NCBI GenBank assembly: GCA_000004985.1
Contig: GG738904.1
DNA length: 64,000 bases
Source: Naegleria gruberi
Lineage: Eukaryota
Direction: 5' to 3' (one strand)
Part shown: positions 645 to 13,355 of the stretch, piece by piece
How positions within the stretch are numbered: position 1 is the stretch's first letter
Layout of the letters: each line of letters begins with the position of its first letter
The notes under the pieces: model-generated
What the model was told of the DNA's origin: nothing
The model's database searches: none
What the model saw: the letters and a program-made list of their open reading frames with translations, nothing else
Made by a program: the position numbers and the translations under genes

Positions 645-2444
645 TTATTTGGTCGGAATTTTAAGTGAATCCAGATTCAAATCACTTCTCAAATTCTTCA
701 CCTTATTACTCTCAAACTTGACCTTATTCTTCTTAACATGTTGCTTTTGAGTTTGTTTCTGAAATTCCACAGTTTGCTTGAATCGATGATGAGTATCCAA
801 CATCAAGACACATATTTCACTTTCCACATTATCAAACAGAGTATCAGTCAAATGTTCATTCTCACCACTTGCAAAGTAATCCAATTGTTCCTTAACTCTA
901 TCTGCAGCACTCTTATTAATATTCACTGATTTGTCTCCATTGATATCGAGGAAATCAGTGTAAATTTCAAAGGCAATTTCGTACTTTTTCTTTTCAATTT
1001 CATGGAGATCCTTCTCAGTGTAGCCCTTCTTCTTCTTCTTTTTGTGTTGATGGTCCAAGTTGGAGGAGTTGGCAGTTGCAGAGCTACCTGAATCGGAGAG
1101 AGAATCAGAATGAGAATTTGGACTCATGTCATCATAGAGGAATACTTGAATTTCAAAGGACTTTTCACACAGGATTTTGTAATCTGTAATTTTGTCCAAT
1201 AGTAAGTAATTATCCAAACTCAATTCTTGTTTACAATGGTCCCTGAATAGCTTTCTCAATTTGTTATCCCTCATAGTATCCATCAAGAGGAAGGCGTTGG
1301 CTGCCTTGAGCTTTTTCGTATTACTTGCATCCTTTCGAATAGAGACAATGATTGAGGCAATCACTGATGGCAACACAATGCAAATGGAAACACACACCAC
1401 AATGAGTGAAATTGTAGTGATGGTTACATTAACGCTTCGAGAACTATCTTCCAATTCATTCAGATAGTCAACTGTTGGCTGGAATTCTTCACTGTATCCT
1501 GCAATGTCATATTTGTAAGCGTCAGATTCTAATAACGTCATGGCATATGAATAGTTTCCAATATTTGCCAATTCTAACATTTGAGTTTCAAGAGCAATGG
1601 CCTTGGAAGTTCTCAAATCAGCAACTGAAACATTATGAGTATAGGTATATCGCAAATTAGTTGGCAAATAGGCCAACATTTTCGTAATTTCAGTATTGAA
1701 CTTGGTCTTACTCGTTTCGTATTTTGCAGTATAATTGGCTGTCAGTTGCAAATTGTTATTGGTATAGACAGATGATCTGCAAGCTGCCACCATTCTTTCT
1801 CTATACAATGTAATGTTCAAATCCATACTACCAATTGCTGTTTGTAATTCCGAGTTGACCACATAGTAAGCCACAATCAGGATAAGAAGAGCCATAAAGG
1901 CAAGGAAATTTACAATAAGGGAACTCAAATTCAAAAATTTGACAGGAGTCAATTCAATCGTGGAACCGAAACAAGTTCTAATTTTGAGCATGGTTGTGGA
2001 GGAATGACTTTTAGTGGTAGTCTTTGAACCAATACCAGAGGCAGATCTAGGTTGTTTCTTCTCACCATTATATGGATTACCAGTTGCCACATCATGTTCC
2101 TCAGCAAAATTGGCATTTCTATTCGATTTGTCCATCAGAGCCATCGATCTCATCTCAATGGACACAGAACTGGACTGATGCAAATGATTATTATCATGAG
2201 ATTGCAAAGAACTCGTCGAAGTATTCAAATCAGTTGGCAAATGATGAGAACCATTGGCATAAAGTGAATAATCACAATTATTTGGATCAATTTTGTGAAG
2301 TTCTTCAATGACATTTTGGATGGTTGACTTTTCATGGAGTGAATTCGAAGGAGTGGAAAGAGAAGGATGTTCTGTGATATTCTCTTGTTGCTGCATTTTG
2401 GGAGGTGATTGAGTTGGATTGTTTTTTTGAGTTTGGATATTCAA
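645..2444 (-). CDS. Receptor-like membrane protein with a C-terminal RGS domain. Order is cytoplasmic S/T/N-rich N-terminus, TM1, an intervening loop of about 170 aa, TM2, then an RGS domain split by a poly-K insertion.
   Basis: 599-aa ORF. Two strongly hydrophobic segments (LIVNFLAFMALLILIVAYYVV and ITTISLIVVCVSICIVLPSVIASIIV). The C-terminal region (FLLMDTMRDNKLRKLFRDHCKQELSLDNYLLLDKI ... IAFEIYTDFLDINGDKSVNINKSAADRVKEQL) matches the RGS helix pattern by eye. No splice is needed. Confidence 0.6.
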   Translation of the reverse strand: MNIQTQKNNPTQSPPKMQQQENITEHPSLSTPSNSLHEKSTIQNVIEELHKIDPNNCDYSLYANGSHHLPTDLNTSTSSLQSHDNNHLHQSSSVSIEMRSMALMDKSNRNANFAEEHDVATGNPYNGEKKQPRSASGIGSKTTTKSHSSTTMLKIRTCFGSTIELTPVKFLNLSSLIVNFLAFMALLILIVAYYVVNSELQTAIGSMDLNITLYRERMVAACRSSVYTNNNLQLTANYTAKYETSKTKFNTEITKMLAYLPTNLRYTYTHNVSVADLRTSKAIALETQMLELANIGNYSYAMTLLESDAYKYDIAGYSEEFQPTVDYLNELEDSSRSVNVTITTISLIVVCVSICIVLPSVIASIIVSIRKDASNTKKLKAANAFLLMDTMRDNKLRKLFRDHCKQELSLDNYLLLDKITDYKILCEKSFEIQVFLYDDMSPNSHSDSLSDSGSSATANSSNLDHQHKKKKKKGYTEKDLHEIEKKKYEIAFEIYTDFLDINGDKSVNINKSAADRVKEQLDYFASGENEHLTDTLFDNVESEICVLMLDTHHRFKQTVEFQKQTQKQHVKKNKVKFESNKVKNLRSDLNLDSLKIPTK

Positions 2445-7214: not shown

Positions 7215-8175
7215 GTTTTCGGAATGTACAAAGAAAAACCGGATTAAACCTTAGATTGACTAGTTTGAGTATAGGTAGTAGTATTAGTATTAGTTGTTGT
7301 TGTGTCTTGTTCGGATTGATTTCTATTGAAAAAATCAAAGGAAGGATGATATAAACACATGACCAAAATTGAAAATATTAAAATTCCCAAACAATTCAAA
7401 AAATCATAAAACAATGATGAATAATTCCAGACAAAACTAACAGCACCCAATCCAACTGCAATAATTTGAAAAAATGTTGAAAATATCAAAACTGAAAGCA
7501 AAATGATAATTTTCAAAATGGGTTGTTTCCATGAATAGGATTGAGATTGATCTTTGAATTGTTTTCTTGTCTTGTTGAGGAGTATAATCACTCTTGAAAA
7601 CACAATCTATTCATTATTTCAAAATAATTTTAGTTTTCATAATTTGCATTTAGAATTATGAGAATGTTAAATGAAAACTTACTGAAATTGCAATTGTTTG
7701 AACAATTAATTGAATTGCAAAGAATGCGAAACAAGCAATCACGAATATGAACAATATATCATCAGCATATGGTATCCCAACAGTTTCTGTTGTCAATGTA
7801 CTATTCCTGTTTATCATAACATCTTGATAGAGTTGATCTGTTTCATTCACATTATTCACTTTCAAATAATTGTGAAATCGTTCAACAATGGAAATATTAC
7901 AAAAAGTATAAGCAGTTCTTGCACACAATGCCAATGTTTGAACAATCAACAATGTATTCACGAGAATGAGAACAATTCTCTGAGCCTTCCTCAATGTCTT
8001 CCAAGTTTGATTCCTCACAATGAAAATAATCATGACAAGAATGAGTGAAATGAACAACAAGATGAAGAGAAAGGAAATCGATTGATCTATAGCACTCAAC
8101 AGAGTATCATCAAAATCATCAATAGTAAACACTGGAGAGGAGACATTGTTGGTAGAAGATGACGTTTCGTTTACC
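7215..8175. repeat. Inverted repeat arm 1 (partner arm at about 12165..13355)
   Basis: Translated ORFs on opposite strands are identical over more than 250 aa (SSPVFTIDDFDDTLLSAIDQSISFLF... and ...NKTRKQFKDQSQSYSWKQPILKIIILLSVLIF...). Intron and 3' flank (caatctaaggtttaatccggtttttctttgtaca) are also shared. Confidence 0.75.
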
Positions 8176-8225: not shown

Positions 8226-8956
8226 CTTTGTTTGTTTTTTTCTTTTGTGATTAGTGAAGTATGACAACGTTACAGGAATGAAAACGAATAACAATTTGAG
8301 AGATATGGATTACTAATTGGAAGAATAGTTGCAACTAACAAATATAGAAAATATTTCCTTGAAATATTTGCAAACCCCGAAGCACTCCAGAAATATTCAC
8401 AAATTCAAAAGTTAATTGTTTCTTTCAATCGATAATTATGAAGTTGCAGGTAGAAACAAGCTCTCTGCAACTGGTACTTTTCGGCAAGGAGTTATCTCGA
8501 AAAAAATGGAAGAAACCACCAGTTAAATAGTTCAATAAGGATGTACCAGAGAAGTAAGATTCAGTGATGCAATTCTATGACTACTACACTATCTAGATTT
8601 TCCCAAAAAACAATGTCTGCAAATGAGCCTGCTAGAGTTGACAGACTAGAAATATTTGCTGTAAACTCATCGAATCTTCAGTTTGAAAACATAGAGAGGG
8701 TAAACAAGCTAATTATTACAAAAAGAAATCTCAAAACTTCTATTTTCCAATTATTTACTCATTTCCTTTTGGTAAAGGATATTTGGCAATGGATTATGAA
8801 AATAATCTTGATAATTTAGTTTCATTCTTTCCATTTATGGATCAAGTTCGAAGGTTTCGTATGTCCAACCTGTTGGACTTTAGCAATGAGAAATAGAGCG
8901 CCAACGTATTGTGTTCAACACAGAGATACCACAGAACTTGGATTTATTCAAAAAAA

Positions 8957-11475
8957 ATGCAAAGACTAAACTTTATTAGAATCCTTTGCTGCTACTTGCT
9001 TACAACAATAATCTTCATGTCAACATGTGTTGTTGAATGTAGAAACATGCATGTCATTGACAAACAAAGTCAATTGCGAGATATATCACAACCTTTCACT
9101 GTGGTTTCTATTCGAAAGTATTACACAAGTTTCGTCAATCATTTGGCACCAATTATGACCTCTGGAGTGGAATTTCTTTCAGATAGTCGACCTCTCCAAG
9201 AATATTTCAATGTTTACTGCGTTTATACTTCAGTTTTCAGCAGTGGAAATTTGGCGCCAAATGACAATTCCATATTAAGTAATCTCAACTCTTCTATTTG
9301 TTCAAGTATAAATCATTTAGACGATTCCAACATGCCAATCGATGCTGCCCATAACAGTTATCTTGTTCTGAACCAAGAACCTTCCATCATCTTCTCCCCA
9401 AATAGTTTACTTCCACTTTGGTCAATTATCTTGAAAAATGCAATGGTTGACCAGACGATGAGGTATAAAGTTTGGAATTATTCGATTTCTGAAACGTTTA
9501 CAATGTATGCACTGTATGATAAAGCAACAAGTATGGAATATGTGTTGGATAGCGATCTAGTTTCGAATAGGGAAGGAATTGTAAAAGAATTGGAAGAGGA
9601 AATATGGAACGATTGTAAATTATTCGAAAGAGTGTACGAAATTCAAATGAGAGAAGGTTTAGGATTGGGATTTTCGTCAATCTCCATTTCTGAAAATAGG
9701 ATTTGCAATGAAACATTACAAAATTCAACATTTATGGAAGAATATCATCAAGCAATTTTGAGAATTGATTTATACTTGAATTTAATGTTGAATTATTCGA
9801 ATCTTGTGAATACTACTGGAAGTTTAACTCAAATGCTTCCAAGTTCCACTTTCTATTTTATGGATAATCTTATTGCTACCTTTAATCCAACCTTTCTAGT
9901 GGAAGCTATTCGAAATGTTTTACAAAATGGAGGATTTAACACATATTTGTCCTATTCGAAACCTTCCTCGAACTATGATATGGAATACTTCTCCATGCTT
10001 CAAAAATCAGATCTGAAACCAGTTTCTCAACTCATGATTCATCCAAATTGTTTCTGCTATTACAACTTGTATGCCTCTCAATATTATTTCAGAGATTCTT
10101 ACCTTCTCAAACTAATCTTCAATGATATAATCTATTTTGGAATATTTTTTATTGGAGTTTTCATCTTCCTCTTTAATTGTGTGAGTTACTGCTTGGATTG
10201 TAAACTTTTTGTAAAGAAGAGAATTCTCCTTCCCTTATTAGGACCTCCAACGTTGATTGTAATCTCAGCATGTTACACTGTATTTTTGAGATCGAAATTT
10301 TCAGTGGCCACTTATTGGATTCTTGTGATTATTGCTGTTTTTCCTGCTCCAATTCTAATTGGTACTTATTTAGTTTCCTTATTTAGATTTTCCTATTGAA
10401 AAATATGGATTTGTGGCAGAAAAAGATTTTCAAATCACCCAAAATTCAGAAACACTTGGCTTCCACATGTACTTCAATGGTATTTTCCATAATTACAACC
10501 TTAATTGTCCTTGTCATTTGTTTGGCACCGATTGTCACTACTTCTGTGGCTATTTTGTTTAGTTCCGCAAATATTCCACAAGAATTGTTTATTCTATTGA
10601 TGGGATTTGAAGTTCTCTTCATGCTATTGTTTGCATTGATATTTTTCATAGTTGACTTGATCAATACTGGAGCTGCAATGATTAAGAGGAAAGGTTTAGG
10701 ATATTATTTCTTCTATGATGATCCTTTCTATTACAGAATTGACTTGTTTATCATGATCTTAATGATGGGATCTGTCATTCCAATCATTGTTGGTTCAGTT
10801 GAGGATGGAACTCCCTATTTCATTGTTCGAAAGGTCTTTACAGTAGTTTTCTTTGTCATGTTCTATGCAATCATTGGTGGAACTGTGACAATTGCTCACT
10901 GGATCAACAAGTTCAGAAGACTGAAATCCAAATACAGAAATGCACAAGTTACCACATTGGAATCATTCTTGGAAGATCAGCAATTTAGAGAAATGTTTCG
11001 AACCTATTCCAAAAATGAATTTTCATTGGAAAATATTATCATGTATGAAGAATTGGAAAAGCTAAAAAAGAACAATAAGGTAACCCCTCAGGAATTGAAA
11101 TCTCTTCAAGAGAAATTCCTCCTTTCATCCTCTGTTCATGAAGTTAATTATCCATCGGCAGTTAAGAAGAACTTTCAAGAATTATTGGATTCGTATAAGG
11201 ATGAGGACGTTTCTTCCAATGACAGTGATTCAACCACACAAACAAAATCATCCAATTCCCTTAAACAATCAACAGGACTTCCAAAGAAGGGAACTGTTAT
11301 GTTGGAAAAGATGTTAGAATTGGTCATGCCAGAATTATTGAAAAACATGTTTGACACATTTTCTCGCTTAAAGACAACACCTGAATTTGGGCATTGGTTT
11401 GAGATGAAGCAAATACAGACAACAGAATTGGGAGAGGAACAACACCAAGAACAACCAAAAGATGAGAAAGTTTAA
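8957..11475 (+). CDS. Receptor with a large N-terminal ectodomain, seven transmembrane segments and a C-terminal RGS domain (7TM-RGS). Probably two exons.
   Basis: ORF 8909..10399 has a signal peptide (MQRLNFIRILCCYLLTTIIFMSTCVVEC), an ectodomain of about 350 aa and 3 TM helices, and ORF 10396..11475 in another frame has 4 more TM helices then an RGS-like region (FRTYSKNEFSLENIIMYEELEKLKK...). A 47-nt GT..AG interval (10373..10419) restores the frame and joins ...IGTYL to KKIFKSPKIQ. Confidence 0.6.
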
Positions 11476-12109: not shown

Positions 12110-13334
12110 GTGAAGAAACTTGCCCACCTTTCAAATTTCAAAACTTTTACTGCCACTACTGACGACTCTTCAAATAACAATGTCTCCTCTCCAGTGTTTA
12201 CTATTGATGATTTTGATGATACTCTGTTGAGTGCCATAGATCAGTCGATTTCCTTTCTCTTCATCTTGTTGTTCATTTCACTCATTCTTGTCATGATTAT
12301 TTTCATTGTGAGGAATCAAACTTGGAAGACACTGAGGAAGGCTCAAAGAATTGTTCTCATTCTCGTGAATACATTGTTGATTGTTCAAACATTGGCATTG
12401 TGTGCAAGAACTGCTTATACTTTTTGTAATATTTCCATTGTTGAACGATTTCACAATTATTTGAAAGTGAATAATGTGAATGAAACAGATCAACTCTATC
12501 AAGATGTTATGATCAATAGGAATAGTACATTGACAACAGAAACTGTTGGGATACCATATGCTGATTTAGTGGGAATGTTTTTCTCGAATGGAATTGAAAC
12601 CTTTTTAATACTGTTAGCTCTCTTGGTGATTAATGAAATTGTGCACTACATTTCTCATCTATTCTTCAATCTGATCAAATATTCACAAGGAATATTGAAA
12701 TCAAAGAGAACCAAAATTATCAGAAAGATATTCGATATTTCCTTTTTCATTAGTTCTGGAGTTTTCTTTGTCTTGCTTATTGCAATTTTAGTAATGCTCA
12801 TAATAGTCAAACTGAAAGTAATTGAAGATATATTGTTCATATTCGTGATTGCTTGTTTCGCATTCTTTGCAATTCAATTAATTGTTCAAACAATTGCAAT
12901 TTCAGTAAGTTTTCATTTAACATTCTCATAATTCTAAATGCTAATACTCATTACTCATTTTGAAATTCAAATAGATTGTATTTTCAAGAGTGATTATACT
13001 CCTCAACAAGACAAGAAAACAATTCAAAGATCAATCTCAATCCTATTCATGGAAACAACCCATTCTGAAAATTATCATTTTGCTTTCAGTTTTGATATTT
13101 TCAACATTTTTTCAAATTATTGCAGTTGGATTGGGTGCTGTTAGTTTTGTTTGGAATTATTCATCATTATTTTATGATTTTTTGAATTGTTTGGGAATTT
13201 TAATATTTTCAATTTTGGTCATGTGTTTATATCATCCTTCCTTTGATTTTTTCAATAGAAATCAATCCGAACAAGACACAACAAATACTAATACCGATAC
13301 TAACAATACTCAAACTAGTCAATCTAAGGTTTAA
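12110..13334 (+). CDS. Multi-pass membrane protein, copy B of the inverted duplicate pair (possibly 5'-truncated or a pseudogene). join(12110..12904, 12975..13334).
   Basis: Same protein as copy A, with an extra internal segment of about 86 aa and a variable Thr/Asn-rich C-terminal tract. A 70-nt GTAAGT..AATAG intron is present (12905..12974). There is no in-frame ATG upstream of the first TM helix; the ORF opens with GTG. Confidence 0.5.
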
Positions 13335-13355
13335 TCCGGTTTTTCTTTGTACAAT
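12165..13355. repeat. Inverted repeat arm 2 (partner arm at about 7215..8175)
   Basis: See arm 1. This arm carries an indel of about 260 bp relative to arm 1. Confidence 0.75.

What the first reader, a model, noticed from the sequence alone, without database searches (positions are those of the whole stretch)
8957..11475. Ectodomain + 7TM + RGS receptor (GPCR and GAP in one protein) assembled from two ORFs
The two ORFs together give a signal peptide, a Cys-containing extracellular domain of about 350 aa, exactly seven hydrophobic helices (three in the first ORF, four in the second) and a cytoplasmic RGS-like domain. The 7TM-RGS architecture is known from plant AtRGS1-type proteins, where the 7TM region is N-terminal with little ectodomain. 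A large ectodomain in front of it would make this a ligand-binding receptor that directly carries its own GAP domain. The join needs a 47-nt intron (10373..10419), with a weak GTTTCC donor, or a sequencing frameshift.
Basis: partly seen in the sequence, partly recalled or inferred. Interest (0 to 1): 0.55.

Follow-up and report, generated by a model that had tools for sequence, protein, structure and literature searches.

The report
Naegleria 7TM-RGS receptor gene, frameshifted
The two reading frames are one Naegleria gruberi gene for a membrane receptor with its own G-protein "off-switch" (RGS) domain, a protein type already described in Naegleria; they are split by a single missing base, not by an intron.

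Summary
ORF1 (8957..10399) and ORF2 (10396..11475) together encode a signal peptide, a ~355-aa N-glycosylation-rich ectodomain, seven TM helices (3 + 4) and a C-terminal RGS box (Pfam PF00615, 30.3 bits against a cut-off of 23.9).

The window is Naegleria gruberi. An intact paralogue (P0002, 836 aa) and four other homologues read straight through the junction: ...LFRFSY|LKNMDLWQK.... In the window, the Tyr codon (10394-10396) and the Leu codon (10396-10398) share one T. The break is therefore a 1-nt deletion, either an assembly error or a very recent mutation. The proposed 47-nt intron would delete 16 conserved residues and is rejected. The GenBank model (586 aa) avoids the frameshift with a spurious 668-nt intron that removes TM1-5.

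The architecture is not new. N. fowleri has 28 7TM-RGS proteins, several with large ectodomains and proven GAP activity (PMC9283941). This gene belongs to that heterolobosean family. Only the ~270-aa N-terminal ectodomain module, shared by five Naegleria proteins, is uncharacterised. Interest is low.

The parts
8957..10396 (+). 5' part of the coding sequence (aa 1-480: signal peptide, ectodomain, TM1-TM3), ORF1 frame, up to the Tyr480 codon
   Evidence: ORF. It is colinear with paralogue P0002 residues 1-475. The first ATG of the ORF matches the start of the paralogue model.
8957..9040 (+). Predicted signal peptide (aa ~1-28, MQRLNFIRILCCYLLTTIIFMSTCVVEC); the cleavage site is approximate
   Evidence: N-terminal hydrophobic segment at aa 3-29. 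The paralogue has an equivalent N-terminus. No signal-peptide predictor was run.
9041..10102 (+). Ectodomain (aa ~29-382). The N-terminal ~270 aa are specific to a five-protein Naegleria clade. The last ~80 aa form a juxtamembrane stalk shared by the whole family (HPxCFxYY here, SxCHxCxxxxC in most relatives).
   Evidence: Six NxS/T sequons and six Cys. C250 and C365 are invariant in the five ectodomain homologues. No Pfam family matches. The family-wide stalk is seen. In the AF2 model the region is mixed alpha/beta with patchy confidence.
10103..10929 (+). Seven-transmembrane domain: TM1 10103-10198, TM2 10226-10291, TM3 10304-10401, TM4 10465-10560, TM5 10576-10692, TM6 10732-10800, TM7 10810-10929
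10394..10398 (+). Frameshift site. The Tyr codon TAT (10394-10396, ORF1 frame) and the Leu codon TTG (10396-10398, ORF2 frame) share T10396, so one T is missing relative to TAT TTG. The ORF1 stop TGA lies at 10397-10399. The shift could lie anywhere in 10385-10398, but only this position restores the paralogue's exact RFSYLKN.
   Evidence: insertion scan; tblastn HSP ends; RF[ST]YLKN invariant.
10396..11475 (+). 3' part of the coding sequence (aa 481-839: ICL2, TM4-TM7, RGS box, C-terminal tail, stop), ORF2 frame
   Evidence: ORF. It is colinear with P0002 residues 476-836.
10957..11400 (+). RGS box (aa ~668-815), carrying a ~40-aa Ser/Thr/acidic-rich insert (aa ~748-785, 11197-11310) before the last helices
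   Evidence: Pfam PF00615 at 30.3 bits against GA 23.9. RGS10/17/4 matches. Family profile against RGS10 over the full box at E 2e-10. Foldseek matches to RGS4, RGS1 and RGS8 at prob 1.0. The conserved motifs EFSLEN, EVN and DTFSR are nearly invariant in the family.
10069..10736 (+). Spurious 668-nt 'intron' of the deposited gene model (P0001: 586 aa, start 9047). It excises TM1-TM5.
   Evidence: The P0001 sequence is reproduced exactly only by this GT..AG pair. The excised stretch is conserved coding sequence in all homologues.

Best explanation
The locus is a single Naegleria gruberi gene for an ~839-aa seven-transmembrane RGS receptor. Its parts, in order, are a signal peptide, a glycosylated ~355-aa ectodomain, a GPCR-fold 7TM bundle and a cytoplasmic RGS (GTPase-accelerating) box. 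In this assembly the reading frame is broken at the TM3/ICL2 boundary by one missing T (10394-10398). That is either a sequencing or assembly error, or a very recent inactivating mutation or allele. No intron is involved.

Inferred mechanism, by homology with the N. fowleri 7TM-RGS proteins and AtRGS1: the membrane-tethered RGS box accelerates GTP hydrolysis on one or more of the many Naegleria G-alpha subunits, some of which exchange nucleotide on their own. This keeps them switched off. An extracellular cue sensed by the ectodomain/7TM part is expected to alter GAP access, for example through conformational change, phosphorylation of the Ser-rich insert, or internalisation, and so release G-alpha signalling.

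Shown here: gene structure, domain architecture, fold, conservation of GAP-contact residues and family membership. Inferred only: GAP activity, ligand regulation and expression.
For: - Organism and paralogue: P0001 is 100% identical and P0002 (836 aa) is 54% identical over 98% of the query; both are N. gruberi.
- The paralogue reads ...LFRFSYLKNMDLWQK... without interruption.
- A 1-nt insertion at 10395-10397 gives an 839-aa protein. It aligns end to end with P0002 at score 2377 with 474 identities, against 2268 for the intron model and 1304 for the deposited model.
- tblastn of P0002-P0005 against the window always gives two HSPs meeting at 10396-10402, with contiguous homologue residue numbers.
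- RF[ST]YLKN is invariant across the junction in six sequences.
- Pfam RGS scores above the gathering cut-off.
- Residues aligning with the RGS10 SEEN and VN motifs are conserved. E, S, E, N, N, D and R are nearly invariant in 62 family members, and the window protein retains all of them.
- AF2 model of the paralogue: pLDDT 79.5, seven TM helices plus a helical RGS domain.
- Family members occur in N. fowleri, N. lovaniensis and Willaertia.
- The biochemistry of N. fowleri 7TM-RGS GAP activity is in PMC9283941.
- N. gruberi has 44 G-alpha subunits (PMC8584482) and 229 RGS genes (PMC5784254).
- The window lineage shows no rate acceleration relative to P0002: 66 vs 61, 55 vs 73 and 51 vs 58 unique changes against three outgroups. 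Any inactivation is therefore recent, if real.
Against: - The frame really is broken in the only sequence available. No independent assembly or transcript of the locus was found, so the gene may be dead in the sequenced strain.
- The structure model is of the 56%-identical paralogue, not of the window protein itself.
- Foldseek E-values are weak (0.02-0.1) because a multidomain model was searched whole.
- The 7TM region has no sequence-level match to any Pfam or PDB GPCR family.
- GAP activity, G-alpha partner and ligand are all untested.
Confidence: 0.9

Rival explanations
1. The frameshift is a sequencing or assembly error. The real gene is intact (TAT TTG at 10394) and expresses the full 839-aa receptor.
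For: Apart from the one base, 839 codons are free of stops or other lesions. All family-invariant residues are retained. There is no excess of lineage-specific substitutions in either half. The missing base lies in a T run.
Against: No reads, traces or second assembly could be consulted. No identical or near-identical protein from another assembly is on record. A very recent real mutation would look exactly the same.
Confidence: 0.5
2. The frameshift is real. This copy is a recently inactivated paralogue (or one dead allele) within a large, fast-turning-over gene family.
For: The family is highly expanded, with 221 hits at E<=1e-3 and 28 members in N. fowleri alone; such families shed copies. 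The gene sits between the arms of a recent inverted duplication, one arm of which is internally deleted, so the neighbourhood has been rearranged recently.
Against: There is only a single lesion, and no sign of relaxed constraint.
Confidence: 0.4
3. A 47-nt intron (10373..10419, GTTTCC...GGCAG) joins the two ORFs.
For: It has GT..AG ends and its length restores the frame.
Against: It would remove 16 residues (VSLFRFSYLKNMDLWQ), 15 of which are identical in the paralogue. The RF[ST]YLKN core is invariant in six homologues. The alignment score drops from 2377 to 2268. Conserved residues of the two frames overlap by one nucleotide, which no intron can produce.
Confidence: 0.02
4. The deposited gene model is right: a 586-aa protein made by splicing out 10069..10736, giving ectodomain + 2 TM + RGS.
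For: A GT..AG pair reproduces the database protein exactly.
Against: The 'intron' encodes TM1-TM5 in two long stop-free frames, conserved at more than 50% identity with the paralogue and present in every homologue. An even number of TM helices would place the RGS box on the same side of the membrane as the glycosylated ectodomain.
Confidence: 0.02
5. The break is functional. Either a programmed -1 ribosomal frameshift occurs, or there are two separate products (ectodomain-3TM, and 4TM-RGS restarting at ATG 10405) that reassemble as a split receptor.
For: The ORF1 stop (10397-10399) and an in-frame ATG of ORF2 (10405) are only 5 nt apart.
Against: There is no X XXY YYZ slippery heptamer at the site (sequence). 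All five homologues that cover the site are continuous. The Met at 10405 is simply an ancestral internal residue, also present in P0002 and P0006. Reinitiation after a 480-codon ORF is not expected in eukaryotes (general knowledge).
Confidence: 0.03

Closest known systems
Naegleria fowleri 7TM RGS proteins (Nf 7TM RGS1-4 and 24 others; Bosch et al., J Biol Chem 2022, PMC9283941)
   Same: Same genus-level family. Direct sequence homology over 7TM + RGS to N. fowleri, N. lovaniensis and Willaertia proteins. Same order of parts: extracellular N-terminus, 7TM, C-terminal RGS box. Many members have large ectodomains. The RGS boxes of three members are proven GAPs for Nf G-alpha subunits.
   Different: The ectodomain here has none of the EGF-like, lectin or GPS modules reported for Nf 7TM RGS1-4 (no Pfam hit). 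Its N-terminal ~270 aa are shared only with four other Naegleria proteins: P0002, P0003 and P0005 of N. gruberi and P0004 of N. lovaniensis. None of those checked is from N. fowleri. This copy carries a frameshift.
Arabidopsis AtRGS1 and other plant 7TM-RGS proteins
   Same: Same logic: a 7TM domain fused to a cytoplasmic RGS box that acts as a GAP on a self-activating G-alpha (PMC3386157 abstract; PMC9283941).
   Different: AtRGS1 has almost no N-terminal ectodomain (own knowledge), whereas this protein has ~355 aa. No plant protein appeared among the relatives whose origin was checked. Homology of the 7TM parts was not shown. Here the Ser-rich segment lies inside the RGS box rather than in a C-terminal tail.
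7TM-RGS architectures of other protists and early-branching opisthokonts (Trichomonas, chytrids, filastereans, ichthyosporeans; de Mendoza et al. 2014, PMC3971589)
   Same: Same domain combination. It is reported as widespread outside animals.
   Different: These are different lineages. No sequence relationship of the 7TM or ectodomain parts was demonstrated here.
Animal GPCRs with large ectodomains (adhesion class B2, class C)
   Different: No GAIN/GPS, 7tm_2, ANF_receptor or any other Pfam match. Identity to any solved GPCR is 7-12%. The cytoplasmic output is an RGS (GAP) domain, the opposite sign to a GEF-type receptor.

Membership tests
Heterolobosean (Naegleria-type) 7TM-RGS receptors | Significant sequence homology across 7TM + RGS to family members, including N. 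fowleri proteins | tested here: met
   phmmer with paralogue P0002 gives 221 hits at E<=1e-3 and 76 at E<=1e-10, most aligned over residues ~320-745. Hits are from N. gruberi, N. lovaniensis, N. fowleri and Willaertia magna. tblastn of these proteins onto the window confirms the homology.
Heterolobosean (Naegleria-type) 7TM-RGS receptors | Seven transmembrane helices with a GPCR-like fold, N-terminus outside | tested here: met
Heterolobosean (Naegleria-type) 7TM-RGS receptors | C-terminal RGS box | tested here: met
   PF00615 at 30.3 bits against the curated 23.9. The family profile covers the full RGS10 box at E 2e-10. Foldseek matches RGS4, RGS1 and RGS8 at prob 1.0.
Heterolobosean (Naegleria-type) 7TM-RGS receptors | G-alpha contact/GAP residues of the RGS box retained (equivalents of RGS4 S85, E87, N88, N128, D163, R167; numbering from own knowledge of the 1AGR structure) | tested here: met
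   EFSLEN aligns with RGS10 EFSEEN, and HEVN with SQVN. DTFSR lies in the last helices. These positions are at least 90% conserved in 62 family members and are present in the window protein.
Heterolobosean (Naegleria-type) 7TM-RGS receptors | GAP activity towards a Naegleria G-alpha subunit | not testable with these tools
   Shown only for Nf 7TM RGS2-4 in PMC9283941.
Heterolobosean (Naegleria-type) 7TM-RGS receptors | Uninterrupted open reading frame (a functional gene) | tested here: not met
   There is a 1-nt frameshift at 10394-10398 in this assembly. Whether it is real could not be determined.
Plant AtRGS1-type 7TM-RGS | 7TM domain at the extreme N-terminus with a minimal ectodomain | tested here: not met
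   About 355 aa of ectodomain and signal peptide precede TM1.
Plant AtRGS1-type 7TM-RGS | Sequence homology of the 7TM part to plant RGS1 proteins | not tested
   No AtRGS1 sequence was compared. None of the 20 relatives whose source was looked up is from a plant.
Adhesion GPCRs | GAIN domain with GPS motif next to TM1, and a secretin-like 7tm_2 domain | tested here: not met
   There is no PF01825, GAIN or PF00002 hit in the window protein, the paralogue or the five ectodomains, even at E<=5, and none in 62 family members at E<=0.01. The juxtamembrane motif is HPxCFxYY, or SxCHxCxxxxC in relatives, not CxCxHLT.
Class C GPCRs | Venus-flytrap (ANF_receptor/PBP) ectodomain plus a 7tm_3 domain | tested here: not met

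The most novel reading that the evidence does not exclude
The frameshift is genuine and tolerated. The locus would then make an ectodomain-TM1-3 fragment and, by restarting at ATG 10405 (5 nt after the TGA) or by -1 frameshifting, a TM4-7-RGS fragment, and the two would reassemble as a naturally split 7TM-RGS receptor. A milder reading is also not excluded: the ~270-aa N-terminal ectodomain module, private to five Naegleria proteins, may be a new ligand-binding fold.
Probability: 0.03. Interest if true: 0.55.

Novelty: new member of a known kind. Interest (0 to 1): 0.18.

Why it matters
The value is mainly curatorial. The public N. gruberi gene model (586 aa, "predicted protein") is wrong, and the correct product is an 839-aa 7TM-RGS receptor. 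The gene adds one small subfamily, with an uncharacterised ectodomain, to the Naegleria 7TM-RGS radiation. That radiation is thought to let these amoebae sense external cues by switching off self-activating G-alpha subunits. It does not change the picture set out by Bosch et al. 2022 and de Mendoza et al. 2014.

Tried and rejected
- **47-nt intron and the deposited 668-nt intron:** both rejected by colinearity with the homologues.
- **Programmed frameshift:** no slippery heptamer at the site.
- **First AlphaFold run** with a 3-sequence alignment: pLDDT 37, unusable.
- **Frameshift-corrected protein:** the structure tool did not accept it, so the intact paralogue was modelled instead.
- **Foldseek against AFDB50:** library unavailable.
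- **Ectodomain family:** a Pfam scan of the five ectodomains at E<=5 gave nothing consistent. An ectodomain profile search of the 5.8-billion-protein set returned only the window's own model.
- **Exact-sequence look-ups** of ORF1, ORF2, P0001 and P0002 in the assembly collection found nothing. There was therefore no independent read-out of the frameshift and no paralogue DNA for dN/dS.
- **Flanking duplicated multi-TM gene:** no homologues found.

Full report
**Observation.** The region holds two adjacent + strand ORFs one frame apart. ORF1 runs 8909..10399, with its first ATG at 8957. ORF2 runs 10396..11475. ORF1 is stop-free over 480 codons and ORF2 over 359, while their other frames carry 22-33 stops each. 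Both are therefore real coding sequence in this 33% GC window. Hydropathy shows an N-terminal signal-like segment and seven hydrophobic helices, three in ORF1 and four in ORF2. Pfam RGS (PF00615) matches ORF2 residues 188-266 at E 6e-7 and 30.3 bits, above the curated cut-off of 23.9.

**Source and relatives.** The best database hit is a 100%-identical 586-aa "predicted protein" of Naegleria gruberi (P0001). A second N. gruberi protein (P0002, 836 aa) is 54% identical over 98% of the joined query. An exhaustive phmmer search with P0002 found 221 relatives at E<=1e-3.
- Only four of these (P0001, P0003, P0004, P0005) also align over the N-terminal ectodomain.
- The rest align over residues ~320-745, which cover the juxtamembrane stalk, the 7TM domain and the RGS box.
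- Relatives whose origin was looked up come from N. gruberi, N. lovaniensis, N. fowleri and Willaertia magna, plus unnamed environmental contigs.
- Of 62 near-full-length relatives, 46 hit Pfam RGS. None hits a 7TM or ectodomain family consistently.

**The junction.** P0002 reads ...LIGSYMVTLFRFSYLKNMDLWQKVVFKHPKIQRHLAS... without a break. In the window, VSLFRFSY-stop lies in the ORF1 frame and LKNMDLWQKKIFKSPKIQKHLAS in the ORF2 frame. The Tyr codon TAT (10394-10396) and the Leu codon TTG (10396-10398) share one T.
- Inserting a single base at 10395-10397 gives an 839-aa protein that aligns end to end with P0002. The score is 2377 with 474 identities and a 15-residue identical run across the junction.
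- The 47-nt intron model scores 2268 and deletes 16 conserved residues. The deposited model scores 1304.
- tblastn of P0002, P0003, P0004 and P0005 onto the window always gives two HSPs that meet at 10396-10402, with contiguous homologue residue numbers.
- RF[ST]YLKN is invariant across the junction in six sequences.

The two ORFs are therefore one gene interrupted by a 1-nt deletion. No intron can make two conserved codons overlap by one base. The deposited 586-aa model starts at 9047 and splices out 10069..10736. This is a chance GT..AG pair that removes TM1-TM5, an artefact of the gene predictor avoiding the frameshift.

**Is the frameshift real?** This could not be decided. No other assembly or transcript-derived protein for this locus is on record. 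Apart from the one base, the gene looks fully maintained.
- There is no other lesion in 839 codons.
- Every position that is at least 90% conserved in the 62-member family alignment is retained.
- A relative-rate comparison with P0002 against three outgroups shows no acceleration on the window lineage: 66 vs 61, 55 vs 73 and 51 vs 58 unique changes. Both halves behave alike.

The choice is therefore between an assembly error and a very recent mutation or allele. I rate these about equally likely. A programmed -1 frameshift is unlikely, because there is no slippery heptamer and all homologues covering the site are continuous.

**Anatomy of the corrected protein.**
- Signal peptide, aa ~1-28.
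- Ectodomain, aa ~29-382, with six Cys. C250 and C365 are invariant in the five ectodomain homologues. All six ectodomain NxS/T sequons lie here, against one sequon in the remaining 455 residues.
- TM1-TM7, aa 383-658, with K/R-rich loops 1, 3 and 5, which fits an N-out/C-in topology. The frameshift falls at the cytoplasmic end of TM3.
- RGS box, aa ~668-815, interrupted by a ~40-aa Ser/Thr/acidic-rich insert.
- The last ~80 ectodomain residues form a juxtamembrane stalk shared by the whole family. The motif is HPxCFxYY here and SxCHxCxxxxC in most relatives. The first ~270 residues are private to the five-protein clade and match no Pfam family.

**Fold.** A first AlphaFold run with three sequences failed (pLDDT 37). 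With the 62-sequence family alignment, the intact paralogue P0002 gave pLDDT 79.5 and pTM 0.72. The model has seven long TM helices followed by an all-helical C-terminal domain, and a mixed alpha/beta ectodomain of patchy confidence.
- Foldseek returned GPCRs and RGS4, RGS1, RGS8 and RGS17 at probability ~1.0, but with weak E-values.
- At sequence level, the RGS box aligns with RGS10, RGS17 and RGS4. With the family profile it aligns over the whole box at E 2e-10.
- The motifs EFSLEN, HEVN and DTFSR correspond to the G-alpha-contacting S85/E87/N88, N128 and D163/R167 of RGS4. That numbering comes from my own knowledge of the 1AGR complex. These motifs are nearly invariant in the family.

**Mechanism (inferred).** N. 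gruberi encodes about 44 G-alpha subunits (PMC8584482) and 229 RGS genes (PMC5784254). In N. fowleri, some G-alpha subunits self-activate, and the RGS boxes of 7TM RGS2-4 accelerate GTP hydrolysis on specific G-alpha subunits (PMC9283941). By homology, this protein should hold partner G-alpha subunits in the GDP state at the membrane. An extracellular cue acting on the ectodomain/7TM part would then modulate that GAP activity, as proposed for AtRGS1. The ligand, the G-alpha partner and any role for the Ser-rich insert are unknown.

**Comparison and novelty.** The 7TM-RGS combination is widespread outside animals (PMC3971589). In Naegleria, members with large, complex ectodomains have been described explicitly: 28 proteins in N. 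fowleri, some with EGF-like, lectin and GPS modules (PMC9283941).

This gene is a member of that family, with a subfamily-specific, unclassified ectodomain. It is not an AtRGS1-type protein in the strict sense, because of the large ectodomain and because no plant relatives were seen. It is not an adhesion or class C GPCR, because it has no GAIN/GPS, 7tm_2, ANF_receptor or 7tm_3 match. The useful outcome is a corrected gene model and a flagged single-base problem in the assembly.

**Verdict.** The join mechanism and the novelty claim are wrong. The gene is a new member of a known kind, of low interest.

Noticed in passing
window 7225-8159 (- strand) and 12167-13353 (+ strand): The 7TM-RGS gene lies in the ~4-kb spacer of an inverted duplication whose arms are 95-98% identical. 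Each arm carries a gene for a multi-TM protein with about seven hydrophobic segments over ORFs 12110-12931 + 12990-13334. That protein has no Pfam hit and no database homologue. The left copy lacks 257 nt (12566-12822 of the right copy), so it is probably a damaged duplicate.
   Followed up: partly
window 645-2444 (- strand): A second RGS protein in the window (599-aa ORF, Pfam RGS E 3.6e-7 at aa 390-561). It has two hydrophobic segments (aa 168-201 and 336-372) bracketing a ~135-aa sequon-rich loop. This is a two-TM, sensor-like RGS architecture, unrelated in sequence to the 7TM-RGS family (no tblastn hit).
   Followed up: partly
window 9047-11475, deposited model P0001: The public N. gruberi protein for this locus (586 aa) starts at an internal Met (9047), so it lacks the signal peptide. 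It also uses a spurious 668-nt intron (10069-10736) that deletes five TM helices.
   Followed up: yes
same 297-kb scaffold, outside the window (protein P0005, NAEGRDRAFT_52771): Another member of the same five-protein ectodomain clade is recorded on a contig of the same length (297,120 bp) as the window's gene. It is not inside the window. This suggests dispersed paralogues on one scaffold.
   Followed up: no
window 61001-62000: GC content drops to 0.17 in this kilobase, against ~0.33 elsewhere. It lies between an NHL-repeat ORF (60180-61217, -) and an acyl-CoA oxidase ORF (62009-63736, +). It was not examined further.
   Followed up: no
family alignment A4, juxtamembrane region (P0002 residues ~340-375): Most 7TM-RGS relatives share a Cys-rich motif, [LP]S[ST]CHxCxxxxC, immediately before TM1. 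This may be what SMART calls a GPS motif in N. fowleri members. The window's clade has reduced it to HPxCFxYY.
   Followed up: partly
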